Assembly (NCBI GenBank): GCA_041494885.1 | Contig: JBGQBO010000001.1 | Span: forward strand, 158,101-222,100 | Source of the DNA: Terriglobia bacterium | Lineage (GTDB): Bacteria > Acidobacteriota > Terriglobia > JAIQFV01 | Direction: 5' to 3' | DNA: 64,000 nt | Made by a program: the position numbers and the translations under genes | Part shown: positions 15,662-60,196 of the stretch, piece after piece | Numbering within the stretch: the stretch's first letter is position 1 | Layout: each line of letters begins with the position of its first letter | The notes under the pieces: model-generated | What the model was told of the DNA's origin: nothing | Database searches by the model: none | What the model saw: only the letters and a program-made list of their open reading frames with translations

Positions 15662-16213
15662 ATGCCAATACTAACCACACTGGAAAAAAACGTCGTCACC
15701 GGAGCAAACCCTTTTTCCGAGCACAACACGGAATTTGGTGCCGGGGTGGTCACCACCACGTTCGACAAGGTGGTCAATTGGGCCCGGAAGTCTTCCATTT
15801 GGCCCATGACTTTTGGCCTGGCATGTTGTGCCATTGAAATGATGGCCATGGGGGCGTCCCGATATGACATCGCGCGCTTTGGAGCGGAGGTGTTTCGCGG
15901 ATCACCTCGCCAGTCGGACTTGATGATTGTGGCCGGTCGAGTTTCCAAGAAAATGGCACCGATTGTGCGCCAGCTGTATGATCAAATGCCGGAACCCAAG
16001 TGGGTCATTTCCATGGGGGTGTGCGCCACGGCGGGCGGCATCTTCAACAACTACGCCATCGTGCAAGGCGTCAATCAAGTCGTCCCGGTGGATGTGTATA
16101 TCCCCGGCTGTCCTCCCCGGCCGGAACAGCTTATTTATGGGATCATGAAGCTTCAAGAGAAAATCGATCGGCAGCGCGGCAGCTTCAAGGACGTCCTTCC
16201 GTTCAGCCGTTGA
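15662..16213 (+). CDS. nuoB: NADH-quinone oxidoreductase subunit B (NuoB, 20-kDa N2 Fe-S subunit)
   Basis: 183 aa; [27 protein letters not shown] cluster-N2 cysteine motifs; no other nuo genes nearby. Confidence 0.85.
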
Positions 16214-16477
16214 GCCTCAGTACAGAGCGGATCTGCAATTTAGTTTTTCGATCGGCGGAACTTTCCGGATGTGATCGTCGAGAACGGGTTTCAAGAGGTT
16301 GTGACCCGGATCGGCTGGTTCAATCATCGGTTTCCTACACCTTGACGACCGCTTCCTGAGCTATTCTCTTCCCCCTCATCTGCGTGGGATCCCCGTTGAC
16401 CCACTCCCCTCTGGTATAATCCATCCGCGTTTTCAGACTAACCTTCAAACTCAATTCAGGACCAAGGGAGGATTCCC

Positions 16478-16915
16478 ATGTTATCACCCGGAGAGCAGGC
16501 GCCCGATTTCAAGGTGAAGACCCATGAAGGAAATGAAGTTTCGCTGAGCCAATTTGGAGGGAGTAAAGTTGTCCTATGGTTTTACCCAAAGGCAGACACC
16601 CCCGGCTGAACCAACGAAGGCAAAGGATTCCGTGATCGAATCCGAGAGTATGAGGCGAAAAACACAAAGATCCTTGGCATCAGTTTTGACACCGTCGAAG
16701 AAAATGCGGCTTTTGCGAAGAAGTTTCAATTTCCATTCCCCCTGTTGTGCGATACGGACAGGAAAATAGGATTGGCTTACGGGGCGTGCGAATCGGCCCA
16801 CGATGAATATGCCAAGCGCATCACTTATGTGATCGGCGAGAATGGAAAGATCCTCCAGGCCTATCCCAAAGTCGATGCCGCACGCCATCCGAACGAGCTG
16901 CTGGAGAAGCTGTAG
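16478..16915 (+). CDS. bcp: Selenocysteine-containing peroxiredoxin (Bcp/PrxQ-like); in-frame TGA at 16607..16609 read as Sec
   Basis: ATG 16478 with AGGGAGGA Shine-Dalgarno. 43 codons (…VVLWFYPKADTPG), then TGA, then 101 in-frame codons (TNEGKGFRD…ISFDT…LLCDTD…). This aligns residue-for-residue with E. coli Bcp ([23 protein letters not shown]) with the TGA at the peroxidatic Cys. The two halves appear only as sub-threshold ORFs in the track. Confidence 0.7.
16625..16643 (+). promoter_or_regulatory. Putative bacterial SECIS hairpin for the Sec-Bcp UGA
   Basis: GGAUUC-CGUGAUC-GAAUCC: 6-bp stem with a 7-nt loop containing GU, starting 15 nt 3' of the UGA, inside the reading frame. Confidence 0.45.
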
Positions 16916-17059
16916 GAGCGCACCCATCGACGCAGCCCATTTCCGTCGGCAACGTCAGCAGGGCCTTTGTGCCTTTCCGTCTTCGGGTGAAATCGATGTA
17001 CCGATCCGGCGAGAAGTTACCGGCCCGGACCGCGGCTTGGGGGACAGAAAATTCAAGAG

Positions 17060-17905
17060 TCAGTAGAACACCTTTTCGAGGAACAAACCAAACGGAGGGG
17101 CTGTCCACTCAGCCGGCTTGGGAGAGGGTTTATAGAAAAACGAACCAAATTCATCCCGAGTACAATGGCCCGCGCTTAATTCCACCATGCTCCCCACCAG
17201 GCGCCGGACCATCTTCCACAGGAATCGGTCCGCACGGATGTGAAAGGTCAACAGCTCGGCATAGCAGGGCCGCGTAATACGAATCTGCCGCCACTCGCAT
17301 TCATCCACCGTACATTGAAAGGAGCGCTCTTCCTCCTCATCCGGATCACAAAAAGACCGGAAGCTATGTCTTCCCACGACGAGCTTCGCAGCCTCCTGGA
17401 GCACAGGCAGTTTGATCTCGCGCCTCGGACACCAGGCATGACGCCGCAAGAAGGGGGTGTACGATTCAACCAGTTGATAGCGGTAACTGCGGGACCGTGC
17501 GTCATGGCGTGAATGAAAATTCAGGGGGACAAACGAGGCTTGGGTTACTGTGAGGTCAGCAGGAAGGCCGCTGTTGAGTTCCTGCATGATCTTCCCTGCG
17601 GACCACAGGCGCGGATCATTGGCATGGTCCCCGGCATGAAAAGCTGTGTTTAAAAGGGGGATGTCACGGCTCCGGGAGGCGGACCTTTCAACCGGAGGAT
17701 CCCCGTGAAGGACTGCATTCACGACCTGGGCCTCGGCATGGACGCCCCGATCGGTGCGGCCCGCCGCGATGATCCTTGGCTTTTCCCGCAGGACGTCGAT
17801 CATCGCCGTCAGTAGCTGACCCTGGACGGTGCGCACGTCCTTTTGAATCTGCCAGCCGGAAAATCGCGTGCCTTCGTATGCTAGCGTGAGCTTCAGGTTT
17901 CTCAT
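17060..17905 (-). CDS. truA: tRNA pseudouridine(38-40) synthase TruA
   Basis: 281 aa; LAYEGTRFSGWQ...GRTDRGVHA catalytic Asp motif. Confidence 0.9.
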   Translation of the reverse strand: MRNLKLTLAYEGTRFSGWQIQKDVRTVQGQLLTAMIDVLREKPRIIAAGRTDRGVHAEAQVVNAVLHGDPPVERSASRSRDIPLLNTAFHAGDHANDPRLWSAGKIMQELNSGLPADLTVTQASFVPLNFHSRHDARSRSYRYQLVESYTPFLRRHAWCPRREIKLPVLQEAAKLVVGRHSFRSFCDPDEEEERSFQCTVDECEWRQIRITRPCYAELLTFHIRADRFLWKMVRRLVGSMVELSAGHCTRDEFGSFFYKPSPKPAEWTAPPFGLFLEKVFY

Positions 17906-22985: not shown

Positions 22986-23561
22986 TCACGGAAACTTCGT
23001 CACGGCCTCAATGACCTGCTGATCAGGCAACAGCTTTCCTTCCACGTTTTCCCAAAGGATCTTACCGTCTGCTCCTACCAGAAAGTAAGTTCTCTTGGCC
23101 ACTACGGAGTGGATGCCCGGGACGTTGATTTCATGTTCGATGTGATAGTCCTTAACGACCTTGCGTTCCATGTCACTCAACAGCGGGAACGGCAGACTCA
23201 GGCTCTCCCTGAATTTATCCTGTGAGAAGGGTGTATCCGTGCTGATGCCCCACACTTCAATGTTCTTGGCCTTGAGTTTTTCATAATTCTCTCTGAACCC
23301 AGAGAGTTCGGTCGTTCAACCTCCCGTGAAATCGAACACGTAAAAGGCCAGGAGAACCTTCTTCTTGCCTCGCATATCGCTCAATTTCACAGGAGTGAGT
23401 TTGCCCCCCGAAGGAAGGGTAAAATCCGGGGCCAGGTCACCCACTTTGGGGGGCTGCCCATTGGCGCTCGGGGGAGGAGATGTAGTTTGAGCCACTGACA
23501 GTGTCGCGCCCATGAGGCATGTCGCTACAAGCAGTAACCCGACAAAAAAGAGTTTTTTCAT
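22986..23561 (-). CDS. Selenocysteine-containing secreted peroxiredoxin (AhpC/TSA-like); in-frame TGA at 23318..23316 read as Sec
   Basis: Track ORFs 23316..23645 (-) and 22986..23255 (-) are in the same frame, separated only by one TGA. The joined protein is signal peptide MKKLFFVGLLLVATCLMG … VLLAFYVFDFTGG-U-TTELSGFRENYEKLKAKNIEVWGISTDTPFSQ… This is the Prx FDFTFVCPTE motif with Sec in place of the peroxidatic Cys. Start ATG chosen at the signal peptide (23561), preceded by a GAAAGG Shine-Dalgarno. Confidence 0.7.
23289..23306 (-). promoter_or_regulatory. Putative bacterial SECIS hairpin for the Sec-Prx UGA
   Basis: mRNA: UGA + 9 nt + CUCUCUG-GGUU-CAGAGAG (perfect 7-bp stem, GGUU apical loop). 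Confidence 0.5.
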
Positions 23562-32438: not shown

Positions 32439-32888
32439 ATGACCCTTCAGGAACGGATCCAAAAGGATATTCAGGACGCCATGCGCGCCAAGGATTCAAT
32501 ACGACTGGATGCACTGCGCATGACGAAGTCGGCCATCAAGAACAAAGAGGTCGAGAAAATAAGACCTTTGGATGAAAACGAATGCCTTCAAGTCCTCGCC
32601 TCGTTGATCAAACAGCGCAAGGACTCCATCGAGCAATTTACCCGGGGTGGGCGTCCGGAATTGGCCGCCAAAGAGGCGGCTGAGATCAAGATTATTGAAG
32701 CCTACATGCCCGCTGCAGCCACCGCCGAGGACCTGGAGAAGGCAGTGGCCGACGCGATTGCGGAAACAGGCGCTTCTTCAATCAAAGACATGGGGGTGGT
32801 GATGAAAGCCGCGATGGCGAAATTCGCCGGAAAGCCCGTCGATGGGAAAGCCGTAAATGAACTGGTGCGGCAAAAACTCGGATCCTGA
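32439..32888 (+). CDS. GatB/YqeY domain protein
   Basis: 149 aa; LQERIQKDIQDAMRAKD...RLDALRM..., classic YqeY. Confidence 0.8.
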   Translation: MTLQERIQKDIQDAMRAKDSIRLDALRMTKSAIKNKEVEKIRPLDENECLQVLASLIKQRKDSIEQFTRGGRPELAAKEAAEIKIIEAYMPAAATAEDLEKAVADAIAETGASSIKDMGVVMKAAMAKFAGKPVDGKAVNELVRQKLGS

Positions 32889-33401
32889 GAAGGCTTACTG
32901 GTGCCTTTTTAGTCGGGGTTCCCACCGAACACCTCTTGTGATTCAGTCGAGTGGATCCATGAAATGGTCTTACATTAATCGGATCGTTGTTGACCTGCTG
33001 GGAGCGCGGGCGTCCCGCCCGCCCTTGACAGTGAACATCGGAATGCCCGTCCTTCCTCGCGCCCCCAAGGGACTTTGTTCTGCCTCCATTATCGCTTCCT
33101 GCAAGCGGCGCTACTAAATTCCCATTCTTCAGCTCTAGAAACCAACCCGGCCCGTACCGGATTTTCATGGATGTAACGAACGGCGCATTCGAAGTGTCTG
33201 GCATTTCGAATGAACCGATCAAACTATTCAGGCTCCCAAAACTGTCCGGACTTTTCGAGAAGTCGATTTGCCTCTTTTGAGGTATAGGATTTCCAGTTTT
33301 CTCCGTTCTGGGGGAACTCGGTTTAATGGGACATTTTTTTATTTTCCAAGTCGTGCAAGCTGGTCTTGCGGAGGGCCGTGCGGGCGAGACGCCCGCGCTC
33401 C

Positions 33402-34907
33402 TCACACCCTTCTCCGGTACATCACCTGGATTCCCTCGCGCCAGCTCTCATTGATGCCCACCTTGATCACTTCAATCTCGCAAGGGAGGTACTTCAAAAT
33501 CCCTTCCGTGGTGGAGTGGAAGCGGAAGGCCGGAGAGACGAGGAATAGAATGGGTGATTGAGGTCCAGCTTTACCTCCCGAGAAGTACCCGCGGCGCTCG
33601 AAATCTCCGTGCTCGTGGTGCCACTTGACTCTCGTCCAGTAATCCAGCGCCTGCAGCGGAAGATTGATATCTTCGGCAACTTTCAGTTCGATGACCGCCA
33701 AACGTCGTTGGCGCGTCAGGGTCAGGATATCGATGACCCCTCGATCCAGTCCTGAAAAAGCAGGAACCTGTGGATACACAAAACCCGGATCGAGATCGAA
33801 GCTTATCTGTCGAATATCAGAGAGGACCAGAGACTCCAGCCACCTCTCCGATTGGAGGGAATAGTACGGGTGCATGGGGAGGAGGGATCCGGGACGTCGG
33901 ATCGACTGCAACTGGCGGATGAGAGAGGAAAGCTCTTTCTCTAGTCCTTCTACATATCTCTTCTCCATGCGACCCACTCCGAACTTGAGCTCCGACAACC
34001 TCTCATCTCCCAGCCGGGCAAATTCGAGGCCATGAAAACGGAAGGAGAAGAGACCCGAGGCGGGCCGGTGAACGATCTCGATAGAATCCAGCTGGGTACG
34101 GATCGGCAGCGGCAAGAATTCCAATGGAATCTTGTCAGAAGGCAAGGGGACCTGGTCAACCCGCGACAACTTCGTCTCTACGTTGCCAAAGTCTGCCAGA
34201 TCGATCGGGGTCACTTCTCGGATCCCATCGTCGTATTCCAACAGGTCCACCCGGAGTCCCGCACTCTGCAAATAGGCCGCCCGCGCCGCCAACGTGGCAC
34301 TTCTTCCCTCCGGAACCAGCAATTTCAAACCAACGAGAGACCCTCGATTCTTATCCTTCCGCATCTCATTGACCCAGATCAAGCCAAAGCTCAAGCAGCC
34401 ATCGATGGTGGATTGATCTTCGAAGGGATTAACTCCGAACACCGCCCAGCAACGATTCTTCTCGATCCCTACTCCCCGGCAATAATGCTCGGAAAAGGAG
34501 CGGCTTAGATCTTTACCTGAAATTATCTTATCGATGCGGACTTCAGGGTACTGTGACTGGAGTATCCTGAGGACTTGACTGGGAAATCTCCGACGCGCGG
34601 TTTTCCTTTCCAGCAGTGATTCTGAAGAGTGTGTGGCATCGAATTCCAGAGCAAAGGGACGAGAACCTCCATAGGCGGCTTGCAAAACCAGACGGTTCTT
34701 CTCGCATTCTTCCAGACTGCAAATTCGCCGCGTAAGAGATTGGTCTGAGTTCCAAAGTGTGAAGAGGAGCTTTCCAAACTGAATCTCAAAACAGAAATGC
34801 GAATCCTCAAGCTTGACCATGCCGGAACGGGTGTCACAGACGATGGTTTGAGGATGAGCGAGCAGAAACAACTCGAGCTGGTCCTTGAGTGCAGTCAGGT
34901 CGTCCAT
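33402..34907 (-). CDS. Hypothetical protein with a C-terminal PD-(D/E)xK-like motif
   Basis: 501 aa; no recognisable N-terminal domain. C-terminal GVIDILTLTRQRRLAVIELKVAE fits D...E-x-K nuclease-core spacing. Confidence 0.45.
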   Translation of the reverse strand: MDDLTALKDQLELFLLAHPQTIVCDTRSGMVKLEDSHFCFEIQFGKLLFTLWNSDQSLTRRICSLEECEKNRLVLQAAYGGSRPFALEFDATHSSESLLERKTARRRFPSQVLRILQSQYPEVRIDKIISGKDLSRSFSEHYCRGVGIEKNRCWAVFGVNPFEDQSTIDGCLSFGLIWVNEMRKDKNRGSLVGLKLLVPEGRSATLAARAAYLQSAGLRVDLLEYDDGIREVTPIDLADFGNVETKLSRVDQVPLPSDKIPLEFLPLPIRTQLDSIEIVHRPASGLFSFRFHGLEFARLGDERLSELKFGVGRMEKRYVEGLEKELSSLIRQLQSIRRPGSLLPMHPYYSLQSERWLESLVLSDIRQISFDLDPGFVYPQVPAFSGLDRGVIDILTLTRQRRLAVIELKVAEDINLPLQALDYWTRVKWHHEHGDFERRGYFSGGKAGPQSPILFLVSPAFRFHSTTEGILKYLPCEIEVIKVGINESWREGIQVMYRRRV

Positions 34908-35152: not shown

Positions 35153-37261
35153 TCAGCCTTCCTCCTCCTCCTCTTCTTTTCCAGCCCTTGCCGCCTTGGC
35201 AGCCTCAATGATTTTCAGTGAGATCTGACTGGGAACGATGTCGTAGTGTGAAAATTCCATGGAGTAGCTGCCGCGGCCCTGCGTGGCGGAGGTCAAGACG
35301 GGCGCGTAGGTCAGCATCTCCGACATGGGGACCTGGGCCTTGATAATCTGATTTCCACTGCGGGAATCCATGCCCTGGATTCGCCCCCGGCGTGAGTTCA
35401 AATCTCCCATCAGGTCGCCGGCATACTGTTCGGGAGCAATGATCTCTACATTCATGATCGGCTCGAGCAATACGGGCTTGGCCTGTTCCATCGCTTTCTT
35501 GAATGCCAGCGAACCCGCGATCTTAAAGGCCAGTTCCGAGGAGTCGACATCGTGATACGAGCCGTCGTAGAGGATGGTCCTGAAATCGACCACCGGATAT
35601 CCCGCCAGAAAACCACGGGACGCGGCATCGATAATCCCTTTTTCCACGGCCGGAATGAAGTTCCTCGGAATGGAGCCTCCAAAGATCTCATTCACGAACT
35701 CGAAGCCCTGGCCCCGCGGGAGCGGCTCCATCTTGATCTTGCAGTCTCCGTATTGCCCGTGGCCCCCGGTTTGTTTCTTGTGACGGCCCTGCGCATCAGC
35801 TTTCCCGATGACCGTCTCACGATAGGGAACTTTGGGGGTCTTCAATTTCACTTCCACCTGGTACCGACGTTTCAACCGGGAGACGATGATTTCAATGTGC
35901 TGCTGCCCGGTGCCGGAAAGCAGGAGTTCATGTGTCTGTGGATCCCGGCTGAACCGAAGCGCGAGGTCTTCTTCCAGGATTCTGTGAATGGAAGTGCCAA
36001 TCCGGTCTTCGTCCTGGCGCGACTTCGGCTCAATGGCAAAGGCAATGGCGGGCTCAGGAAACTTGACCGGCTTGTAATAAATCGGATGTGCCTTGTCCCC
36101 CAGCGAGTCGCCCGTCACAGTATCCTTCAACTTGGCGACTGCCCCGATATCTCCCGCTCTTAACTCCGGGACCGCCGTCGCATTTTTTCCCTGGAGGATG
36201 CCAATGTGCGCCATTTTTTCGGATGACCCGCGGGTGAGGTTTTGGACGGTCGCGTCATTCTTCAGTACCCCCGAATACACCCGGAAGTAGGTGACCCGGC
36301 CGGCAAAGGGATCTGCCACGGTCTTGAAGACAAAGAGGGAAAGCGGCTCATCGTCCGACACTTTGCGCGTGGTCTCTTTTTCTTCCTGGGAGGATTCAGA
36401 TCCCGCCACGGGCCGGGCGTTTGCTGCGGGCATGTAGGTGACGATGGCCTCGAGCAGGTTTTGTGCGCCGATGTTGAAATTCGCCGAAGCACAAAGGACT
36501 GGCACGATCCGGCGCTCCGCGATCGCCTGTTTCAGACCCTTTTCAAGATCTTCCAGGGGCAGGGTTCCCTTGTCAAAGAACTCCTCCATCAAGGCATCAT
36601 TTCCCTCGGCCACCTGTTCCACAAGCGCCTCATGCGCCTTTTGCGCAGCTTCCTGCAAATCTCCCGGGATGTCACTTTCCGTTGCCTTGCCGCTTCCCGT
36701 CGTGTCATAAAGGTAGGCCTTCAAGCTGACGAGATCGATGACCCCGCGAAAAGCCTTTTCAAGACCAATGGGAAGTTGGATGGCCATGGCCGCGCGGCCA
36801 AAGTTCTCCCGGATCGATTCAAGGGAGCGCTCAAAACTGGCCCGCTCGCGATCCAGCTTATTCATGATGATCAATCGAGGAAGGCTGAATTCATCCGCGA
36901 AAGACCATACCCTTTCAGTTTGCACCTCGACACCGGCCACCGCATCGACGATGACCGCTGCCGCGTCGGCCACGCGCAGCGCCGCCCGCGTATCATTGAT
37001 GAAAAAGCCATATCCCGGAGTGTCAAGGAAGTTGATTTTGGCCTTATTCCATTCCGCGTAGGCCATTGAGGTGCTGATAGTGATCTTCCGTTCAATCTCC
37101 TCTTCGTCGTAATCCGTGACGGTAGTTCCCTCGTCGACACGACCCAGCCGGTTCACCATCCCCGCCGTAAACAGCAAACCTGAAACAATCGAGGTCTTGC
37201 CTGAGCTCCCGTGTCCGACAAAACAAAGATTGCGAATATTTGCCCCCTCGTAGACCTTCAC
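35153..37261 (-). CDS. Elongation factor G paralog (EF-G2-like GTPase)
   Basis: 702 aa; G1 GHGSSGKTS, G3 DTPGYGFF, G4 NKLD, domains II-V; unusual acidic tail KEEEEEEG. Confidence 0.85.
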   Translation of the reverse strand: MKVYEGANIRNLCFVGHGSSGKTSIVSGLLFTAGMVNRLGRVDEGTTVTDYDEEEIERKITISTSMAYAEWNKAKINFLDTPGYGFFINDTRAALRVADAAAVIVDAVAGVEVQTERVWSFADEFSLPRLIIMNKLDRERASFERSLESIRENFGRAAMAIQLPIGLEKAFRGVIDLVSLKAYLYDTTGSGKATESDIPGDLQEAAQKAHEALVEQVAEGNDALMEEFFDKGTLPLEDLEKGLKQAIAERRIVPVLCASANFNIGAQNLLEAIVTYMPAANARPVAGSESSQEEKETTRKVSDDEPLSLFVFKTVADPFAGRVTYFRVYSGVLKNDATVQNLTRGSSEKMAHIGILQGKNATAVPELRAGDIGAVAKLKDTVTGDSLGDKAHPIYYKPVKFPEPAIAFAIEPKSRQDEDRIGTSIHRILEEDLALRFSRDPQTHELLLSGTGQQHIEIIVSRLKRRYQVEVKLKTPKVPYRETVIGKADAQGRHKKQTGGHGQYGDCKIKMEPLPRGQGFEFVNEIFGGSIPRNFIPAVEKGIIDAASRGFLAGYPVVDFRTILYDGSYHDVDSSELAFKIAGSLAFKKAMEQAKPVLLEPIMNVEIIAPEQYAGDLMGDLNSRRGRIQGMDSRSGNQIIKAQVPMSEMLTYAPVLTSATQGRGSYSMEFSHYDIVPSQISLKIIEAAKAARAGKEEEEEEG

Positions 37262-38163: not shown

Positions 38164-38775
38164 TCACTCCCTTCCCTTCCGAACCTTGTCCTGCATGGAA
38201 CCGAGAAGTTTATTGGCCGTTTCATCGAGGCACTGTTGGATCCCCTGGACCACGGCGGCGACCGTCCGGACTGTCACCGGCCGCGAGCACGATTCCTCTC
38301 CACGCCAGACGTTCAGGCCGGTTTTGTTATCGAACAGTTCAGCCTCGACTTCCACTTCCGCCGAGACCTGTTTCCCCCGATCCACTTCCTCAAAGCGTCG
38401 CACCCGCCCTCTCAGCTTATAGTCGGCCTTATCGGCATCCCGGCTGCTAGTGACACTGGCATAGGCCCCGGAGTCTTTCAAATGGTGGGTAAAATAATTA
38501 CTCACCAGGTCGACCGGTGGGCTCGTCCAGCGCTCGTATTCGTAGTAATTCACTTCGTTCTCGTTTTCGCGGTAAAGGATGCGGTCCTCGAGGAGCACGT
38601 GGTTGGCGCGGAAGCGTTCAACGGTAATCGTCTTGGGGATAGCCGCCGCACTGTTGGATTGGACGTGTGGAGATTCCACGATGTAATAATGCGTCTTGGG
38701 GATGCCGCAGTTCACAGACATCGACAAGGACAAAGCCGCCAAACCTCCCGCAAGCTTCTTGTTCATGCTTTGCAC
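38164..38775 (-). CDS. ABC-type transport auxiliary lipoprotein (PqiC/YmbA-like, DUF330) associated with the MCE system
   Basis: 203 aa; lipobox SVNCG; size and position immediately downstream of mlaD-like gene. Confidence 0.55.
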   Translation of the reverse strand: MQSMNKKLAGGLAALSLSMSVNCGIPKTHYYIVESPHVQSNSAAAIPKTITVERFRANHVLLEDRILYRENENEVNYYEYERWTSPPVDLVSNYFTHHLKDSGAYASVTSSRDADKADYKLRGRVRRFEEVDRGKQVSAEVEVEAELFDNKTGLNVWRGEESCSRPVTVRTVAAVVQGIQQCLDETANKLLGSMQDKVRKGRE

Positions 38776-38871
38776 TCCTGCTCAACACGATTTTTGGATT
38801 CATCGGATCCCGGGAAAATTCCAGGGATCCTGCCTAGCGATGTCCCTTCGTGACCGACCCTCGTTCCCTTT

Positions 38872-47269: not shown

Positions 47270-50200
47270 TTAATCTTTAATGATCTGCAATTGCTGGTCC
47301 CCCGCCTCCGATGGGACCTCCTCATCGACCTTCAACAACAGATGTCGATCCGCCTTGGCGAGCGGAATCGCGGACCCGTCATCAGCGAAAAAATTCAACC
47401 GGAGACTCTGCAAGGGGCCCGAGTTGAGAAAGAAAAATTGGGTCTTGTAGCCTCCCCCCTCGGTAATCTGGGGGAAGATCATAGAGGGTGAAGGAGATTG
47501 CCTTGCAATTCCCACGGGAAAAGTGGTGAGCAGAAAATCTCCCCGCGAATTGGTAAACGCTCGCATCGTCAGCACAGCAAAAGGCGTTGCTGACGAAAGG
47601 TCAACGACCCCGATGAACTCGTCAGGCAAGCCTCCCGGTATCAATTCCTCAAGAAACCGTGATTGATGGCCCATCGCGCTCACGTCGAGCGATCCGCTCC
47701 CGGCCCCACTCACTCCATTCCGCTCATACACATTGATGCCGACTCGCAGTGGAATCGGCCCCGGATTTGCCACCGCCAGTCCCGTGTCGTGCCCCTCCGA
47801 CTTGTCCACGAAGACCCGCGCATGTGTGGTCAGGGATGCGGAAGGGATTCCGGACTCGGTGACGACAACCCCACCCTGGGAATAACTCAAGACGCCCGCA
47901 CCGACCGGAGTTAGCCGCGCTGGGTCGGGGAGGACTTGAACCAACCCCGAGTTGACATGAGTCGGGGAGCCGTCAGTCTGAAAGACGTAGAGGCCGCCTG
48001 GAGGGATGGCATAGGGAAAAGACGAGTCTGCCCGCCCGTTGATCTGTTGAACCGTAAGCGATGATCCATTGTCCCCCAAGATCCGCAATTCCCCCGTTTC
48101 AAGCGTAGCCGATGGGTTCATCAGAATCAGTGTGGTCTTGTATCCGCCTCCGTCGACGAGGTGCGGAAAGTAGAGCGGATCGACTGCAGGTGCCTGACTC
48201 AGATCCGCGACTGGAGTGCTCGTCATTAATGCTTCACCGCGGGAGTTGTTCGTTAATCTCAACGCCAGCAGGGCAAGGGGCTGACTACTCTTGATTTCAA
48301 GCGTCCCAAACTGGATGGCGGAAGAAAAGTCGGGCGGAAAAACAAATCCGCGGGCAAGGTCGCTGAGCTGATCGATAAACCGTGACACGTGGCTATTCGC
48401 AAGGAGCGTTCCGAACCCAACCGCTAGCGGCGAACCATCGACGCCCCTCAGTGTAAACTTGACATCCGCCGAGAGGTTGTTTCCATTGACGATGGCAAGA
48501 CCTGTGTTGGTCTCGATCTTAGTGGCATCGAGACGACCTGTTTTTGCGGAAAAACTCGATCGGTAATCGATAAAAATCTGGGCCGCGGTCGTTGGCTGAG
48601 AGGGAGGTACTCCCACCTCACTCACCACGACTCCATTCTGAGTCAAGGCGAAGACCGCCGTCCCATAGGGGAGTGCCCCCGTCTTCGGGGACAACGTTGC
48701 ATAACCCGCCTGCGCCGCCCCTCCATTGCCTGAGGTAGCATGGATAGCCATTCCGGCGGCCGGAAGATCCAGATCTACTTCGGAGCTGCCGGGTGTAGAG
48801 AGGACGGAAATGATTCGGAAATCACTTGCCAACCCTGATCGATCCTGAAGTTGGACCTGGATCTGGCGCGTGTCGGCTAGGCGATTGGAGCCGGTAAAAG
48901 CAATCTCGGAAACAAATGAGGTCTTATTATCGACTCTCGTCCCGATGTCAAAGCTCCCCGTGCCCAAAACCTGTCCCTGCGCATCAAACCGGGTCTCGGT
49001 CAATCCGACCACGTCGCCTTGCCCATCCCTGCCATAGAACTGTATCCGGATCACTCCATTCGCAGAATCGGCTTGGAAACTTGCGGTCGCGGTGTCGAGG
49101 ATGGGGGGCCCGCTTTCAACGACGCCCCGGATCATCAGGTTGACCGGGGTTCCTTCATTCCACATCCTGGATCCCCCGAACGTCGCCCCGTTGTCCGTAG
49201 AAACATATCCCCCCTGTCTATCCGGGCCGCTCGAATCCAGGGCCGCAGAAACGGCCCCAGAGGCAGGGTACTGGAATCCGATGTACCAATCTCCCGAATC
49301 GATCGCAGGCCCGTTCACAATGGGGAAATCGACATATCCGTTATTGCCATGAATGACCGCCCACTGGTCGACCAGAAGAACGGGAGAATCCGGGGAACGA
49401 TTTGTGGCAGTACGATCGGTGAATGCGACCAAGCGTATTGATTGCCCCAGAGAACCCTGGGCATTCAAGTCCTGAGGGATAAAGATTCGAATGGCTTTCA
49501 ACTTTGAAGGATAGCGACGCGGTGTCAAACGGTTGACCACCATCAAGCCGGTCCCAGGCAAGCTGCTTTCCATCGATCCATCATCGACCAACAACTCCTC
49601 GGTCTTCAGCGCACTGGAAGGGTTCACCAGACTTGCCCGCAAGGCAAAACTGGTCTGGGAGTTGCTGCAGTTGGCCACGGCGATATAATAGGTTCCTGGA
49701 ACCAGGGGAGGAGTGGTCTGGTCGTTGACATAAAGGCTTTGATCGGGAAGAGTGGTCTCCGACTTGTAATCAGCGGTGATCCGTCCCCCCGCAAGAACAA
49801 CCGATTGATCCCGCCGCAAAAACAAATTCACGTTTTGATTCCCTGAGAGTGTGACAATGAGTTGCAGTGTGCCGGCGGGGACATCAATAGTGTATTGTGA
49901 AGGGCCGAGCGTGCAGGTGGTGGCCGAGGAACCGGGCGAAAGGACAGCGGAGGTCTGAACCCCCGAAACGAGATTCACGATTCCGGTATCCGACAGGTTG
50001 GAAGCGAAGCTTTGAACAAAAAGATCTCCATTGAAAGAACCCCAACCCGTCACCTGATCATAAGCGACCTCAGCGGAGAACCCCGGCACGGCGCCCGTGC
50101 TGTTGCTCCCGACTGTCACATCGTGAAACGTTTGGAGGCCGCCCGAAGTCAGCTGGGTCCGGCCCATTTCATAGATTCGGGTGTTCGCCAAACCGACGCC

Positions 50201-51658
50201 GTCACTGCTCGTCCCAGGAACGGCAACAACCTGATTGACTAAACCGAAAAGACCCGCCCACAAGGGAGCGCTCAAACTGGTTCCCCCAATGCAACATCGG
50301 AGGGTCCCTCCCTGGTACCAGTAAACACCCTGTTGGCCCGGATTTCCCATAGCCGCTACATCCGGGACATCCCGCATTCCATCCTTTGGAACCCCGGGAC
50401 CGAACTGGTAAGCGGGTTTTGCATAAAACTTCGATTTTCCTCCGCCGCTTCCACTCCAAGCCGTTTCCTCGCCATACTCAGTGACATTCCCATCAACATC
50501 GAGTACCGGATTGAGATTGGTCCCACCCACACAGGTGGCGTATGGTGAGGAACAAAGACGGTTCACGTCCGGGCCCGAACTGAGTTGAGAGCCCGCGGCA
50601 AACTGCTGAACTCCATTGTCACCGGACGCCACGAAAACCGATTGACCCTGGGAAGCCGCTTGCATGTAACGCTGGTCACTTTGAATCAGTGTCAGATCGG
50701 AAACCATGCTTTCCCCGCCGCCAAAACTGATGCTTACGACGTGCGACGAGGGAAGTCGGTTCACAATGTAATCGAGCGAAGGACTAATGCTGGCGTTGGT
50801 GGGAGCAATGACGACCTGAATGCTCGCTGCCGGAGCCATCGCCCCCGACCATTCGGCATCGAGCAAGACCTCCGTCACCTCGCTGGGGTTGCTCATCCCC
50901 GGATTTTGACCCGGAACCACAAATATCTTTTGGGGGTCGCTGGGGGGCAACCCGAAGAAATTGCGAAAAGCCTGGACATCGCCAATGTCGAAATCACTGC
51001 GCGCCACAATGGCAATGCTCTGCCCTGCTCCGTCGATCCCGATGTTATAGAGGGGGAGGAGGTTGTAGGCGCGATGAAGGTCAGCCGGCGCCATCGAAGT
51101 TCGTGTTCCGCTCCGGTAAAGGGGTTGCTCATCGGGAAAATTATCGAGGCCGAACACCCCCAGCGCACGGTCTTGAAATGGCTCCGAAATCTGCGGGGCG
51201 CGATCGTTGCCGTAAAACCGCTTCCCTTCAAACTCATACGTCCCCATACTAATCTTGAAGGCGCGTTCCACCTGCGCCACCGTCCCGTCAAAATACACCG
51301 AAAGCCGATTCGGATAGGCGTGCGTCACCACCATCCCATTCTGCTGCAGCCATCGAATGACACGTTGAAATTCATCCTCGGAAACTCCGAACCGCGCTCC
51401 AAATTCTTCCGGCGTCAGCCATCGATGATATTGGGCCGATCGGGGGTTCTGTTGTTCTTCCAGAAGCTGCTGCAATCCGGCCAGGTTCTGGATCCTGAAA
51501 GCGAGCAGCATCGACTTGAGTTCCATGGAGGGTTCCGCCCTGCTGACAAAGCGGCTCTGCTTCAAGAAAACCGGCGCCTTCTCTGCTGAGGGGTTGACTG
51601 AGGGTACGATCAAGAACGACAAGAACAGCAAAAGGAATGAAGAACGCTTCGAATTCAT
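47270..51658 (-). CDS. Sedolisin (S53) peptidase with about 1000-aa C-terminal tandem beta-rich domains
   Basis: Start at MNSKRSSFLLLFLSFL signal peptide (track ORF extends to 51823); pro-kumamolisin activation domain, catalytic GGTSLSAPLWAG serine motif; C-terminal two-thirds is repetitive Gly/Ser/Thr-rich domains. Confidence 0.75.
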   Translation of the reverse strand: MNSKRSSFLLLFLSFLIVPSVNPSAEKAPVFLKQSRFVSRAEPSMELKSMLLAFRIQNLAGLQQLLEEQQNPRSAQYHRWLTPEEFGARFGVSEDEFQRVIRWLQQNGMVVTHAYPNRLSVYFDGTVAQVERAFKISMGTYEFEGKRFYGNDRAPQISEPFQDRALGVFGLDNFPDEQPLYRSGTRTSMAPADLHRAYNLLPLYNIGIDGAGQSIAIVARSDFDIGDVQAFRNFFGLPPSDPQKIFVVPGQNPGMSNPSEVTEVLLDAEWSGAMAPAASIQVVIAPTNASISPSLDYIVNRLPSSHVVSISFGGGESMVSDLTLIQSDQRYMQAASQGQSVFVASGDNGVQQFAAGSQLSSGPDVNRLCSSPYATCVGGTNLNPVLDVDGNVTEYGEETAWSGSGGGKSKFYAKPAYQFGPGVPKDGMRDVPDVAAMGNPGQQGVYWYQGGTLRCCIGGTSLSAPLWAGLFGLVNQVVAVPGTSSDGVGLANTRIYEMGRTQLTSGGLQTFHDVTVGSNSTGAVPGFSAEVAYDQVTGWGSFNGDLFVQSFASNLSDTGIVNLVSGVQTSAVLSPGSSATTCTLGPSQYTIDVPAGTLQLIVTLSGNQNVNLFLRRDQSVVLAGGRITADYKSETTLPDQSLYVNDQTTPPLVPGTYYIAVANCSNSQTSFALRASLVNPSSALKTEELLVDDGSMESSLPGTGLMVVNRLTPRRYPSKLKAIRIFIPQDLNAQGSLGQSIRLVAFTDRTATNRSPDSPVLLVDQWAVIHGNNGYVDFPIVNGPAIDSGDWYIGFQYPASGAVSAALDSSGPDRQGGYVSTDNGATFGGSRMWNEGTPVNLMIRGVVESGPPILDTATASFQADSANGVIRIQFYGRDGQGDVVGLTETRFDAQGQVLGTGSFDIGTRVDNKTSFVSEIAFTGSNRLADTRQIQVQLQDRSGLASDFRIISVLSTPGSSEVDLDLPAAGMAIHATSGNGGAAQAGYATLSPKTGALPYGTAVFALTQNGVVVSEVGVPPSQPTTAAQIFIDYRSSFSAKTGRLDATKIETNTGLAIVNGNNLSADVKFTLRGVDGSPLAVGFGTLLANSHVSRFIDQLSDLARGFVFPPDFSSAIQFGTLEIKSSQPLALLALRLTNNSRGEALMTSTPVADLSQAPAVDPLYFPHLVDGGGYKTTLILMNPSATLETGELRILGDNGSSLTVQQINGRADSSFPYAIPPGGLYVFQTDGSPTHVNSGLVQVLPDPARLTPVGAGVLSYSQGGVVVTESGIPSASLTTHARVFVDKSEGHDTGLAVANPGPIPLRVGINVYERNGVSGAGSGSLDVSAMGHQSRFLEELIPGGLPDEFIGVVDLSSATPFAVLTMRAFTNSRGDFLLTTFPVGIARQSPSPSMIFPQITEGGGYKTQFFFLNSGPLQSLRLNFFADDGSAIPLAKADRHLLLKVDEEVPSEAGDQQLQIIKD

Positions 51659-52229
51659 TGCCGGTGGATTCCGCCTCCAGGTTGGCGCTCTTGTACCACA
51701 CCCCGCGTGAGCGCGCAAGTAAACAGCGTCGCCATGTTCAATGAAAATGTTTGCAGGAATGTCACTGCGAGCAGATTTTGAGAAATCACAACGGGGTCTT
51801 GCGTTGGCCAAAATGGGTCTCATGCCAGGAGAGCGTCACACTTTGGCGGGATGCAATCCCGATCTTAACCCCCATGAACCTGATCTCTAAATCATCCTGT
51901 TGCCCAAAGCCAGCATGTTTTCCGGTGGATAGAGTTAGTCCTGGGCTCAAGACGGTCATGAAATGGATTGGCTTTAGCAGTCGGGTGAATGCTGCTCACC
52001 TCGTCAGCCCTGGAGGCAGCCATGAGAAGGCCATTGGATGGAGACAGAAACGCATCCTTCCGTGATGTGCCGAATGCCTGCTGCCCGCCCTTATATTTTT
52101 TCCTCGCACACAAGGAGAATGATTTTACCCCTTAACTCTTGGGCTGGTTTTTGGGTATACTGTAAGCAAGAGGCTGAGAACTTCGACAACACGCTCTTCT
52201 GAACACGCAAGCGTATAGATCATACGCTC

Positions 52230-56673: not shown

Positions 56674-57530
56674 AACCCACCACGGTGGATTAACAGTTGC
56701 GGCGAGCGGATTCTCAAAATGTGTCACACTGTTCCATATGCTGTTCTTTTGTCGCTTGCTTATTGATGATTTCCCGCTCACCCCGTCTAATATCATCTGC
56801 CACCATTTCTGAGCGTGGTGGGGCACAAAATGGGACACAGTTTTTGTAGAGTGAGAATTCGCCCTGACCGGCCCATGACCCACCACCCATGCTCCCTCAT
56901 GGTCATCGCTCAATTTAGGGACTTTCTTCTTGAAGTTGTGTCCGGTAAGCTTTACACTTTTTCTCGGAAAGTTGCTCCCCCATGTCGGCCTTTGAACACA
57001 ATGACGATTGGCTGGCACTTGAAGCTTTCGATAAAACGATCCCATTCCCCGAACAGAGCGAAAAAGAAGTTGGGAAGCCGGAATCATTTGGTGTGGGAGT
57101 ATTCCACTCATGTCCTCATTTCATTGCGACACGCCGGCTTGCATCGGGGTTCTCAATCGGGATAGGAGGGGATTTTGCGGTCCGGCGGACATCCCGTGAA
57201 ATTCTGTAACGCGATTTCCGTCAAGGACTGCAGGACTTGTCTTAGCATGCAGAATGGGCTGTGTTTGTTTCGACGTTGCCGCCTGATTATGAATTAGGTG
57301 CACAAACGGCAGCCATTGGCCGCGTGAATTGATTGGTCATTTATGGGCAGTCTGTTGTGCAAGGACAAAATGTACATGGGAGCAATGATCACGTCCTGCT
57401 ACATTAGGCTGTGGAGACCGCAGTGTTTGGCTCTACGTGAGAGCAATCTAATACGGCTTCATGTATTAGATCGGCTTCAACACCATTGATCCACATGAAG
57501 GAGCACCTGCCACATAGGTCTGAGCAGCAC

Positions 57531-58463: not shown

Positions 58464-58542
58464 GTGCCGAACGTGGTGTTGAAACCGACGCGAAAAGAAA
58501 GCGTGCGGCTGACAATCGGCGTTAGATTTATTAGGGGGCGCA

Positions 58543-59466: not shown

Positions 59467-59542
59467 CCACTGCGTCCAGACTGTCGGGCGCTGCTGCGCC
59501 AGCCGCTGACGCCTGACGTTAGGCGCCCTCGGGGGGGTATCT

Positions 59543-60196
59543 ATGGCTCAAGATCTACTGAACAGTCTCGCGAATCCGATCATCGCGGTCGGAACACTCG
59601 TCACCGCAATCGCAACCCTTATTGTGGCCATCTACACGACGGGTCTTTGGCGCGAGATTAGGAAACAAAGGAAGGCGATGCAAAAGCCTATATTGGTAGC
59701 ATCCAGGCTTCCGAAAGACGTCGACAATTCTAAAAGCGTCTTTGTTGGCAATTTTGAGTACCCACGCTTTGACTCTTTTGAAACTTCTAGGCTCTACTAC
59801 CTTGGCTTAAAAAACATCGGTCAAGGTCACGCACTCAATGTGCGAGTAGATTCTCTCTTGGTAAATGGCAAGGGCATAGCAATCGGCATTCCGCCTGCGT
59901 GCCACGTTCAGGCTAACGAAACGGTCGCGCTGATAGCAAGATTTGGTTATAACGAACCCGTCTCTGATCTCGAACACAACCCATACCAAGTTGTCATTTC
60001 CTATAGTGATACAGAGGCCAACGAATATGTCTTAAATCTCAATCTCTGGTTCCCGTGGGCTGACCAAGAAGAGGCGATTCAAGCTGTTGTGCTCGGCTCA
60101 CTTGATTCCAGGGCTGAGTTCGGTGCGATCACCGGATCTCTGTCTCGTTATGCGGAATCAATGGGCTACTTCGAACTGCAGCGTCTCATTAGCTGA
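59543..60196 (+). CDS. Hypothetical membrane-anchored protein (single N-terminal TM)
   Basis: 217 aa; IIAVGTLVTAIATLIVAIYTTGLW TM then KQRK; no recognisable domain. Confidence 0.35.
   Translation: MAQDLLNSLANPIIAVGTLVTAIATLIVAIYTTGLWREIRKQRKAMQKPILVASRLPKDVDNSKSVFVGNFEYPRFDSFETSRLYYLGLKNIGQGHALNVRVDSLLVNGKGIAIGIPPACHVQANETVALIARFGYNEPVSDLEHNPYQVVISYSDTEANEYVLNLNLWFPWADQEEAIQAVVLGSLDSRAEFGAITGSLSRYAESMGYFELQRLIS

What the first reader, a model, noticed from the sequence alone, without database searches (positions are those of the whole stretch)
16478..16915. Bcp-type peroxiredoxin with an in-frame UGA at the peroxidatic-cysteine position (selenocysteine)
The reading frame from ATG 16478 is intact except for one TGA at 16607..16609. 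The TGA falls exactly where Bcp/PrxQ proteins have the catalytic Cys (…FYPKADTPG-U-TNEGKGFRD… versus E. coli …[19 protein letters not shown]…). A GC-clamped stem-loop with a GU-containing loop (16625..16643) lies 15 nt downstream, as expected for a bacterial SECIS. Ordinary ORF calling splits the gene and it would be annotated as a pseudogene or missed. A Sec-peroxiredoxin implies selA/selB/selC/selD elsewhere in the genome.
Basis: partly seen in the sequence, partly recalled or inferred. Interest (0 to 1): 0.75.

Follow-up and report, generated by a model that had tools for sequence, protein, structure and literature searches.

The report
Selenocysteine Bcp-type peroxiredoxin gene, mis-annotated
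This is a real but ordinary member of a long-known family of bacterial selenoproteins: a small peroxide-destroying enzyme whose catalytic cysteine is replaced by selenocysteine encoded by an in-frame UGA, which is why public gene calls cut it to a 43-residue stub.

Summary

- **Gene:** ATG 16478 to TAG 16915 encodes a 145-codon AhpC/TSA peroxiredoxin of the Bcp/PrxQ type. Its only interruption is TGA 16607-16609, at the peroxidatic-Cys position (PxxxTxxU).
- **Main evidence (comparative):** 74 of the 80 best-matching loci from species-representative genomes carry TGA at this codon. They come from Acidobacteriota classes, Binatia, Planctomycetales and Bdellovibrionaceae; the other 6 carry TGC/TGT. 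The 45 codons after the TGA have no in-frame restart, yet synonymous changes outnumber non-synonymous ones (13:2, 19:4, 18:5). TGA is also the commonest normal stop in the window.
- **Hairpin 16625-16643:** it exists, is kept 6/6 in all 13 sequences of its clade, and shows two compensatory pairs. On its own it is weak: dG is -6.6 kcal/mol and it has a 26% chance of forming given the peptide. Most relatives use a different, stronger hairpin 6 nt upstream.
- **Second candidate:** a secreted Prx gene (23561-22986, minus strand) has TGA at the same catalytic position.
- **Not found:** Sec machinery genes are not in the window.
- **Novelty:** Sec-peroxiredoxin (COG1225, TxxU) has been listed since 2005, so this is a new, mis-annotated member of a known kind.

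The parts
16478..16915 (+). Complete coding sequence of the Sec-containing Bcp/PrxQ-type peroxiredoxin: 145 codons including UGA-Sec at codon 44, then a TAG stop
   Evidence: PF00578, E=1.4e-36. Searches give Bcp/PrxQ structures as the closest solved structures. Searches show purifying selection on both sides of the TGA.
16466..16471 (+). Shine-Dalgarno-like GGGAGG, 6 nt before the ATG
   Evidence: Read directly from the sequence.
16412..16420 (+). TGGTATAAT, a possible extended -10 promoter element. Seen by eye only; the sigma-70 scan found no canonical two-hexamer promoter.
   Evidence: sequence. One search found 0 promoter-like sites under its criteria.
16607..16609 (+). In-frame UGA at the peroxidatic position (T41-P-G-U44), read as selenocysteine
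   Evidence: aligns with Cys. (TGA in 74 of 80 related loci).
16625..16643 (+). Candidate bacterial SECIS, 'design B': a 6-bp stem GGAUUC/GAAUCC with the 7-nt loop CGUGAUC. There are 21 nt between the UGA and the loop.
   Evidence: dG -6.6 kcal/mol. (100% paired in 16 sequences; 2 pairs changed on both sides). (6/6 in all 13 clade members). (meets bSECIS criteria i-iii but not the energy criterion).
22986..23561 (-). Second candidate selenoprotein gene: an AhpC/TSA peroxiredoxin with a signal peptide, 191 codons, and in-frame TGA at codon 82 (FYVFDFTGG-U-T)
   Evidence: (PF00578, E=9.1e-35). (9 of 10 metagenome relatives carry TGA there). (55 synonymous to 9 non-synonymous differences downstream of the TGA against L093).
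23316..23318 (-). In-frame UGA of the second peroxiredoxin gene
23289..23306 (-). SECIS-like hairpin of the second gene: CUCUCUG-GGUU-CAGAGAG, starting 9 nt after its UGA
   Evidence: MFE -11.4 kcal/mol for the 64-nt stretch. (7/7 pairs in 2.3% of synonymous resamplings). (hairpin alone -10.2 kcal/mol; meets all four bSECIS criteria).

Best explanation
Window 16478-16915 is one gene for a 145-residue Bcp/PrxQ-type peroxiredoxin whose peroxidatic residue is selenocysteine.

Inferred mechanism of decoding: during translation the UGA at 16607 is not read as stop. A SelB-type elongation factor carrying Sec-tRNA(Sec) is recruited by a stem-loop just downstream in the coding sequence, most likely 16625-16643, and inserts Sec at position 44.

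Inferred mechanism of catalysis: the enzyme has the complete Prx active site (P37, T41, U44, R114). The selenolate attacks a peroxide to give a selenenic acid. This is then reduced through a selenenylsulfide with a protein Cys, or directly by thioredoxin. The protein Cys would probably be the family-invariant C91 or C104, because the Bcp-type +5 Cys is Lys here.

Shown here: the gene, the family and fold, the position and deep conservation of the UGA, selection across it, and RNA-level constraints specific to the UGA forms. Inferred, not shown: SelB/SECIS recruitment in this organism, actual selenium incorporation, and the resolving residue.
For: (1) Family. PF00578 matches at E=1.4e-36. The best NCBIfam models are Bcp and PrxQ. 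The closest PDB sequences are Bcp1 3DRN and Xanthomonas BCP. An AF2 model of the 67%-identical Cys proxy (pLDDT 95.8) matches Bcp1, BcpB and PrxQ at TM 0.88-0.92.

(2) The UGA aligns with the peroxidatic Cys. It is TGA in 74 of 80 loci from many lineages. The remaining forms carry verified TGC/TGT.

(3) Selection. Synonymous to non-synonymous codon differences against L001-L003 are 12:6, 17:10 and 22:5 upstream of the TGA and 29:10, 51:11 and 46:22 downstream. In codons 45-89, which have no in-frame restart, they are 13:2, 19:4 and 18:5.

(4) TGA terminates 20 of 38 Pfam-supported genes in the window, so UGA is not reassigned genome-wide.

(5) RNA. All 73 distinct Sec contexts have a hairpin meeting bSECIS criteria i-iii. 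By a stricter stem count, 70 of 73 Sec forms have a hairpin against 7 of 13 Cys forms (p=2.4e-4). Design A is 96.4% paired with a CG/GC switch in 27 of 56 sequences, reached by 0 of 500 shuffles. Design B is 100% paired with two pairs changed on both sides. At synonymous sites, Phe+7 is TTC:TTT = 69:0 in Sec forms against 7:5 in Cys forms (p=3e-5), and Gly+6 is GGR:GGY = 73:0 against 6:3 (p=9e-4).

(6) A second Prx gene 6.4 kb away has UGA at the same catalytic position followed by a GGUU-loop hairpin, and 9 of its 10 relatives carry TGA.

(7) Sec-Prx with a TXXU motif (COG1225 / PF00578) is an established bacterial selenoprotein family, and Acidobacteria are recorded as having selenoproteins.
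Against: No selA, selB, selD or tRNA-Sec lies in the 64-kb window, and the rest of the genome could not be searched.

The window's own hairpin is weak. It has dG -6.6 kcal/mol and a z-score of +0.57. It would form in 26% of synonymous recodings of the same peptide. It misses the published <= -7.5 kcal/mol criterion.

Cys forms closely related to Sec forms keep the same hairpin (L047, L081, L082, L086), so design B is not exclusive to Sec genes. Its two-sided changes come from only two sister sequences.

The Sec-versus-Cys statistics ignore phylogenetic relatedness, and only 13 distinct Cys contexts were available. No Rfam SECIS model matches. There is no direct evidence of selenium in the protein.
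Confidence: 0.9

Rival explanations
1. The gene is a selenoprotein, but the hairpin named by the first reader (16625-16643) is not the functional SECIS. SelB would recognise some other element, such as the longer-range pairing of 16620-16629 with 16669-16678, or a structure these tools did not find.
For: Hairpin B is weak: -6.6 kcal/mol, z +0.57, and 26% expected given the peptide. It misses the bSECIS energy criterion. With a longer context RNAfold prefers a long-range pairing at -13.3 kcal/mol. Most orthologues use a different hairpin (design A), and the second Sec gene in the same genome also uses an A-like GGUU-loop hairpin at a different spacing.
Against: Hairpin B is 6/6 in all 13 clade members, whereas the long-range pairing falls to 5-9 of 9 and does not follow the GGGCUC/GAGCCC compensatory change. 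Hairpin B meets the loop, stem, loop-G and spacing criteria. Design A cannot form in the window sequence (5 of 8 pairs).
Confidence: 0.15
2. The UGA is read through without selenium, by near-cognate tRNA (Trp or Cys) or some other suppression, giving a Cys/Trp-44 protein.
For: Sec machinery was not found in the window, and there are no selenium data. Cys forms of the same family are functional and interconvert with UGA forms.
Against: UGA is the commonest true stop in the window (20 of 38 genes), so general suppression would be costly. UGA forms carry hairpin-preserving constraints at synonymous sites that Cys forms lack. The position is exactly the redox-active Cys, as in all known Sec/Cys pairs. 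A Trp at the peroxidatic position would inactivate the enzyme (established Prx chemistry). Two different Prx genes in the window share the feature.
Confidence: 0.04
3. The gene is a pseudogene or carries a sequencing error: a nonsense mutation inactivated a Cys-peroxiredoxin.
For: Public annotation treats it as a 43-aa fragment. The ORF is formally interrupted.
Against: The same TGA is present in 74 of 80 loci from independent assemblies and lineages, with only one extra stop among them. There is strong purifying selection on codons 45-89, which cannot be translated without read-through. Identical sequence occurs in three independent records.
Confidence: 0.01

Closest known systems
Bacterial Sec-containing peroxiredoxin family ('Prx', TXXU motif; COG1225 / PF00578) of the prokaryotic selenoproteome catalogues (Zhang, Fomenko & Gladyshev 2005, PMC1088965; Zhang et al. 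2006, PMC1794560; 2026 review PMC13188914)
   Same: It has the same domain (PF00578) and the same T-x-x-U motif, with Sec replacing the peroxidatic Cys. Cys homologues are widespread, a hairpin follows the UGA, and Cys/Sec interconversion is frequent.
   Different: This member comes from an uncultured, probably Terriglobia (Acidobacteriota) MAG and is not annotated as a selenoprotein in the public records. Its SECIS candidate is a weaker design than the one in most orthologues and lies 6 nt further downstream. I did not verify that the catalogued sequences are orthologous to this clade. The equation of COG1225 with Bcp rests on my own knowledge.
E. coli Bcp / plant and bacterial PrxQ (thioredoxin-dependent thiol peroxidase; structures 3DRN, 3GKK, 5IIZ, 3IXR, 5EPF)
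   Same: The fold and the active-site tetrad are the same, as is the FYPKxxTPG-C/U-T signature. The size is similar (about 145-160 aa) and the family is typically monomeric.
   Different: Sec replaces Cys at the peroxidatic site. The score is below the NCBIfam Bcp equivalog cutoff (101.3 against 140 bits). There is no Cys at +5 (Lys49) and no Cys at the Xanthomonas C84 position (it aligns with Ala80). Instead there is a subfamily-invariant Cys91 in the LLCD motif.
PrxU of Eubacterium acidaminophilum (Sohling et al. 2001; NCBIfam NF040737), the experimentally characterised Sec-peroxiredoxin
   Same: It is a Sec-containing peroxiredoxin with Sec at the peroxidatic position.
   Different: It belongs to a different Prx subfamily with a profile of about 233 positions. 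The window protein scores 40.7 bits against a cutoff of 270, so it is not a PrxU orthologue.
E. coli fdhF SECIS / consensus bSECIS model (bSECISearch; criteria quoted in PMC13188914)
   Same: It is a stem-loop inside the coding sequence immediately 3' of the UGA. There is a G followed by U near the start of a small apical loop, and the loop lies 16-37 nt from the UGA.
   Different: The window hairpin has a 7-nt loop, CGUGAUC, and only 6 bp. Its energy (-6.6 to -7.1 kcal/mol) is slightly above the model's threshold. No bulged U like that of fdhF is evident. SelB binding was not tested.

Membership tests
Peroxiredoxin, AhpC/TSA (PF00578) | Domain match above the Pfam gathering score | tested here: met
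   125.6 bits against a cutoff of 26, E=1.4e-36, covering residues 4-126.
Peroxiredoxin, AhpC/TSA (PF00578) | Active-site PxxxTxxC(U) motif plus the conserved Arg | tested here: met
   P37, T41, U44 and R114 are present. R114 is invariant in 74 of 74 Sec and 18 of 18 Cys relatives.
BCP/PrxQ subfamily | Closest sequences and folds among solved structures are BCP/PrxQ proteins | tested here: met
   By sequence, 3DRN Bcp1 at 6.3e-22, 5ENU, and Xanthomonas BCP. Foldseek of the proxy model gives Bcp1, BcpB, Bcp4 and PrxQ at TM 0.87-0.92, with AhpE close behind. The fold test used the 67%-identical Cys homologue P0002, not the window protein itself.
BCP/PrxQ subfamily | Reaches the NCBIfam equivalog cutoff for Bcp (NF006960) or PrxQ (NF053650) | tested here: not met
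   101.3 against 140 bits, and 96.7 against 260 bits. It is a related but distinct subfamily.
BCP/PrxQ subfamily | Resolving Cys five residues after the peroxidatic residue (E. coli Bcp type) | tested here: not met
   Residue 49 is Lys. Only 17 of 74 Sec forms have Cys there, against 12 of 18 Cys forms.
Bacterial selenoprotein (Sec-Prx, TXXU) | In-frame TGA aligned with a conserved redox Cys of homologues (a Cys/Sec pair) | tested here: met
Bacterial selenoprotein (Sec-Prx, TXXU) | TGA-containing orthologues in other organisms, with the ORF conserved on both sides | tested here: met
   74 of 80 loci. Synonymous excess on both sides of the TGA.
Bacterial selenoprotein (Sec-Prx, TXXU) | bSECIS criteria i-iii: loop of 3-9 nt, stem of 4-16 bp, G in the first two loop positions, 16-37 nt from the UGA to the loop | tested here: met
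   The loop CGUGAUC is 7 nt with G at position 2, the stem is 6 bp, and the spacing is 21 nt.
Bacterial selenoprotein (Sec-Prx, TXXU) | bSECIS criterion iv: MFE <= -7.5 kcal/mol | tested here: not met
   -6.6 kcal/mol for the hairpin alone and -7.1 for 54-66 nt. 64 of 73 Sec relatives pass. The margin is small and depends on the energy parameters used.
Bacterial selenoprotein (Sec-Prx, TXXU) | Sec machinery (selA, selB, selD, tRNA-Sec) in the same genome | not testable with these tools
   None lies in the 64-kb window. There is indirect support from a second UGA-Prx gene in the window.
Bacterial selenoprotein (Sec-Prx, TXXU) | Selenium actually incorporated at the UGA | not testable with these tools
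   This needs 75Se labelling or mass spectrometry.
PrxU (NF040737) | Equivalog score cutoff | tested here: not met
   40.7 against 270 bits.
Rfam RNA families (including any SECIS models) | Covariance-model match | tested here: not met
   No gathering-score hit in the window. No SECIS hit at E<=10 in 16400-17000.

The most novel reading that the evidence does not exclude
Within a single orthologous Sec-peroxiredoxin family the SECIS has been replaced in place. Most lineages use a strong 8-bp hairpin with a GUU loop 17 nt after the UGA. The window's Terriglobia clade and a few others have lost it and rely on a weak 6-bp hairpin 6 nt further downstream. That weaker hairpin is largely encoded by the conserved G-F-R-D-R-I peptide and is also present in sister Cys genes. 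If so, a peptide-imposed 'proto-SECIS' would explain why this family flips between Cys and Sec so readily, and SelB in these bacteria would tolerate two loop types and two spacings, since the second Sec gene in the same genome uses the other type. Separately, Sec forms have mostly dropped the +5 resolving Cys while keeping the invariant C91, which may indicate a different resolving chemistry.
Probability: 0.3. Interest if true: 0.45.

Novelty: new member of a known kind. Interest (0 to 1): 0.3.

Why it matters
The practical value is for annotation. This gene, its second Sec-Prx neighbour, and at least 74 orthologues in species-representative genomes of Acidobacteriota, Binatia and others would be truncated or missed by standard gene callers. 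That under-counts both antioxidant enzymes and the selenium dependence of abundant soil and sediment bacteria.

Biologically it adds little that is new. Sec-peroxiredoxins with a TxxU motif have been catalogued since 2004-2005. The modest points of interest are how dominant the Sec form is in this clade, the two alternative SECIS designs within one orthologous family, and the repeated Sec/Cys switching. Together these make the family a convenient natural system for studying SECIS evolution inside coding sequence.

Tried and rejected
- **Single-sequence folding of 16607-16660.** The hairpin is no more stable than shuffled sequence, so it cannot carry the argument. I replaced it with comparative analysis.
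- **Rfam.** There was no SECIS match at gathering score on the whole window or at E<=10 around the gene.
- **tRNA scan and Pfam map of 47 window ORFs.** These found no tRNA-Sec, SelA, SelB or SelD. The only EF-like GTPase is EF-G at 35153-37261.
- **Was the 'C' in database homologues a converted U?** No. The codons are real TGC/TGT.
- **Cys-form control.** Only 13 distinct Cys contexts could be gathered, because two look-ups returned no DNA.
- **AlphaFold of the window protein with C at position 44.** I used proxy P0002 instead, but the coordinates are not exposed, so the Cp-C91 and Cp-C104 distances could not be measured.
- **Long-range alternative pairing.** Rejected as less conserved than hairpin B.
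- **Minus-strand 'terminator' hit at 16643-16625.** It is the same palindrome read backwards, 417 nt past the truA stop, and within the shuffle expectation.
- **Genome-wide UGA reassignment.** Rejected, because TGA ends 20 of 38 genes.
- **Other in-frame-TGA candidates in the window.** These were overlapping-frame noise or adjacent same-frame genes. The exception was the second Prx gene.

Full report
**Observation.** The + strand frame from ATG 16478 is open to TAG 16913-16915, apart from one TGA at 16607-16609. A GGGAGG Shine-Dalgarno sequence sits 6 nt before the ATG. The mechanical ORF list splits the frame into a 43-aa ORF (16478-16609) and a TTG-started 56-aa ORF (16745-16915). With Cys placed at the stop, the 145-aa product matches Pfam AhpC-TSA PF00578 across residues 4-126 (125.6 bits, E=1.4e-36). 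The best NCBIfam models are the Bcp and PrxQ thiol peroxidases, but both score below their equivalog cutoffs (101.3 against 140 and 96.7 against 260 bits). The experimentally characterised selenoprotein PrxU scores only 40.7 against 270. The hairpin GGAUUC-CGUGAUC-GAAUCC lies at 16625-16643, 15 nt after the TGA, as described.

**Is it more than chance?** The hairpin alone is not. It folds at -6.6 kcal/mol, the 54-nt stretch is no more stable than shuffled sequence (z=+0.57), and resampling synonymous codons for the same peptide with the window's codon usage gives the full 6/6 stem 26% of the time. The decisive evidence is comparative.

A scan of one genome per species returned 80 loci encoding relatives. 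At the peroxidatic codon, 74 carry TGA, 5 carry TGC and 1 carries TGT. The TGA forms come from Terriglobia (L001-L003, 81-88% identical to the window protein), Thermoanaerobaculia, Marinacidobacterales, Polarisedimenticolia, Vicinamibacteria, Blastocatellia, Binatia, Bdellovibrionaceae, Planctomycetales and deltaproteobacterial MAGs. Only one of the 74 has any additional stop.

The full-length homologues in the protein database (59-69% identity) are genuine Cys forms. Their DNA reads TGC or TGT.

Against L001-L003, synonymous codon differences outnumber non-synonymous ones both upstream of the TGA (12:6, 17:10, 22:5) and downstream (29:10, 51:11, 46:22). In codons 45-89, which have no in-frame ATG, GTG or TTG and so can only be translated by reading through the TGA, the ratios are 13:2, 19:4 and 18:5.

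TGA is also the commonest ordinary stop codon in the window (20 of 38 Pfam-supported genes), so UGA is not reassigned genome-wide. A pseudogene, a sequencing error or a general code change can therefore be dismissed.

**The RNA element.** Two hairpin designs occur downstream of the UGA in this orthologous family. They share the GGRUUC segment and so cannot both form.

- *Design A.* The stem pairs nt 12-19 with nt 23-30, counted from the U of UGA, and the loop is G-U-U. It is present in most lineages. In 56 sequences 96.4% of cells pair, and one pair switches between C-G (28), G-C (24) and G-U (3). This switch links the second base of the +5 codon (Ser, Cys or Arg) to the synonymous third base of the Arg codon. 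No shuffle out of 500 reaches the observed covariation, and slid registers collapse to 29-61% paired.
- *Design B.* The stem pairs nt 18-23 with nt 31-36, and the loop is CGUGAUC. It is used by the window, L001-L003 and some Blastocatellia, Planctomycetales, Marinacidobacterales and delta lineages. In 16 sequences every cell pairs, and two pairs change on both sides (GGAUUC/GAAUCC to GGGCUC/GAGCCC). Those changes come from only two sister sequences.

Design A cannot form in the window sequence (5 of 8 pairs). A long-range alternative that RNAfold prefers in longer context is less well conserved than design B (5-9 of 9 pairs against 6/6 in all 13 clade members) and does not follow the compensatory change.

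Sec forms differ from Cys forms at the RNA level:
- A hairpin (A with at least 7 of 8 pairs, or B with 6 of 6) is present in 70 of 73 distinct Sec contexts and 7 of 13 Cys contexts (p=2.4e-4).
- The Phe codon in the stem and loop is TTC:TTT = 69:0 in Sec forms and 7:5 in Cys forms (p=3e-5).
- The preceding Gly codon is GGR:GGY = 73:0 against 6:3 (p=9e-4).

These tests ignore relatedness, and the Cys sample is small.

I also scored the published bSECIS criteria, quoted from the 2026 review: a loop of 3-9 nt, a stem of 4-16 bp, a G in the first two loop positions, 16-37 nt from the UGA to the loop, and MFE <= -7.5 kcal/mol. The window hairpin meets the first three groups (7-nt loop with G second, 6 bp, 21 nt). 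It misses the energy threshold narrowly, at -6.6 to -7.1 kcal/mol. By the same scoring, 64 of 73 Sec relatives pass all criteria, with a median hairpin energy of -14.2 kcal/mol against -6.9 for Cys forms. Rfam has no matching model.

**Cys forms that keep the hairpin.** The Cys forms closest to Sec forms retain design B: L082 is 99% identical to the Sec form L055, L047 is 96% identical to L055, and L081 is 82% identical to L067. This fits recent and repeated Sec/Cys interconversion, which has been reported for Prx before (5 Cys-to-Sec events in Zhang et al. 2006). It also fits a hairpin that is partly imposed by the conserved G-F-R-D-R-I peptide. Either way, design B is not by itself diagnostic of Sec.

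**A second case in the same window.** A scan for in-frame TGAs outside called genes found one more candidate. On the minus strand, 23561-22986 encodes a 191-codon protein with a signal-peptide-like N-terminus and an AhpC-TSA domain (E=9.1e-35). It has TGA at 23318-23316, again at the peroxidatic position (AFYVFDFTGG-U-TTE). Nine nucleotides later comes the hairpin CUCUCUG-GGUU-CAGAGAG. It folds at -10.2 kcal/mol on its own, meets all four bSECIS criteria, and reaches 7/7 pairs in only 2.3% of synonymous resamplings. Nine of ten metagenome relatives carry TGA at that codon, and the tenth is a distant Cys form. Against the 80%-identical L093, the region downstream of the TGA shows 55 synonymous and 9 non-synonymous differences. 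Two different Prx genes with UGA at the catalytic residue in one 64-kb stretch is independent support that this organism decodes UGA as Sec.

**Context and source.** The gene stands alone between a NuoB-like gene (15662-16213, + strand) and truA (17060-17905, - strand), in ordinary chromosomal surroundings. These include relA/spoT, exbBD-tonB, secDF-yajC-tgt, oligopeptide ABC ATPases, methylmalonyl-CoA mutase, EF-G and mlaDEF. No selA, selB, selD or tRNA-Sec is present in the window.

The same sequence is found on JGI contig Ga0534156_0000002 (307 kb) and in NCBI MAG GCA_041484385.1. In those records only the 43-aa stub and a spurious antisense ORF are called, and the second gene is split into 81-aa and 89-aa pieces. 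The taxon is inferred only from the nearest relatives, which are Terriglobia MAGs.

**Mechanism.** The protein has the full Prx catalytic set: P37, T41, U44 and R114, with R114 invariant in all 92 relatives. The closest solved structures are Bcp1 of S. solfataricus, Burkholderia and Xanthomonas BCP/PrxQ. A confident model of the 67%-identical Cys proxy P0002 (pLDDT 95.8) superposes on Bcp1, M. tuberculosis BcpB and Xylella PrxQ at TM 0.88-0.92.

The inferred chemistry is that the selenolate of U44 reduces a peroxide, and the resulting selenenic acid is then resolved by a thiol. The window protein lacks the Bcp +5 Cys (it has Lys49) and lacks the Xanthomonas C84 equivalent. It does have Cys91, in the LLCD motif, which is conserved in 73 of 74 Sec and 18 of 18 Cys relatives. 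It also has Cys104, conserved in 42 of 74 Sec relatives. Which residue resolves could not be tested, because model coordinates are not exposed.

**Comparison with what is known.** Sec-peroxiredoxin is an established bacterial selenoprotein family:
- The Sargasso Sea selenoproteome lists 'Peroxiredoxin (Prx), COG1225, TXXU', with 43 sequences.
- Zhang et al. 2006 list 12 Prx selenoproteins across bacteria, and 3 selenoprotein families in Acidobacteria.
- The 2026 review lists Prx (PF00578, TxxU) among confirmed families, citing PrxU of E. acidaminophilum.

To my knowledge COG1225 is the Bcp-type peroxiredoxin COG, but I did not verify this with a tool. The window gene therefore works like that family and passes its sequence-level tests. 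It is not a PrxU orthologue and not an E. coli Bcp equivalog.

**Verdict.** The finding is a new, publicly mis-annotated member of a known kind. Interest is modest (0.3). The residual points of curiosity are the dominance of the Sec form in this clade, the two alternative SECIS designs within one orthologous family, the weak design in the window's own lineage, and the loss of the +5 resolving Cys in most Sec forms.

Noticed in passing
window 22986-23561 (- strand); TGA at 23316-23318; hairpin 23289-23306: A second peroxiredoxin-family gene, with a signal peptide and an AhpC-TSA domain (E=9.1e-35), has an in-frame TGA at the peroxidatic position (FYVFDFTGG-U-T), followed by a 7-bp hairpin with a GGUU loop. 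Nine of ten metagenome relatives also carry TGA. Public records split it into 81-aa and 89-aa ORFs.
   Followed up: yes
L103 10817-11227; L104 4215-4625; L105 1320-1730 (public records of the same locus): JGI, NCBI and Logan gene calls for this locus consist of a 43-aa Redoxin/AhpC-TSA stub plus a 104-aa antisense ORF covering the real C-terminal two-thirds of the gene. This is a concrete example of a selenoprotein gene being replaced by a spurious call.
   Followed up: yes
Loci L004-L080, nt 12-36 after the TGA, compared with window 16619-16643: The same orthologous family uses two mutually exclusive SECIS-like hairpins offset by 6 nt. Design A has 8 bp and a GUU loop. Design B has 6 bp and the loop CGUGAUC. 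Some sequences (L007, L008, L025) can form either.
   Followed up: partly
Residue 49 (window 16622-16624) and residue 91 (window 16748-16750): The Bcp-type resolving Cys at +5 is present in only 17 of 74 Sec forms, against 12 of 18 Cys forms. Its codon lies inside the design A stem. Cys91 in the LLCD motif is nearly invariant in both forms and is Ser in E. coli and Xanthomonas Bcp.
   Followed up: partly
L047, L081, L082, L086: Genuine TGC forms that are 82-99% identical to TGA forms keep hairpin B intact. This suggests very recent Sec/Cys switches, or a hairpin imposed by the G-F-R-D-R-I (or G-L-R-D-R-A) peptide.
   Followed up: partly
L019, L021, L029 (all from chromosome OZ240210.1, Marinacidobacterales): One genome carries three copies of the TGA-form gene. 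The L029 copy has an extra in-frame stop near codon 15 (SV*DHTGN) and may be a decaying paralogue.
   Followed up: no
window 16625-16643, - strand: The terminator scan flags the reverse complement of the SECIS-like hairpin followed by TTTGCCTT as a terminator-like site. It is within the shuffle expectation (1 found, 1.4 expected) and lies 417 nt beyond the truA stop, so it is probably meaningless.
   Followed up: yes
window 15662-16213 (+ strand): A stand-alone NuoB-like (Oxidored_q6, 20-kDa subunit) gene lies directly upstream of the Sec-Prx gene, with no other nuo genes nearby. The Sargasso paper lists a TXXU 'NADH:ubiquinone oxidoreductase' selenoprotein family, but this ORF shows no long in-frame extension past its TGA stop.
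   Followed up: partly
window 57486-63793: DUF4365 and several ORFs with no Pfam hit are followed by an 1138-aa Type ISP restriction-modification enzyme. GC shifts from 0.52 (56-60 kb) to 0.59 (60-64 kb). This may be a defence or mobile island at the window edge.
   Followed up: no
window 47270-51823 (- strand): A very large ORF (1517 aa) whose only Pfam match is an N-terminal pro-kumamolisin activation domain. The rest is unassigned.
   Followed up: no
window 32782-34907 (- strand) and 38236-38853 (+ strand): ORFs of 207, 501 and 205 aa have no Pfam match even at E<=0.001.
   Followed up: no
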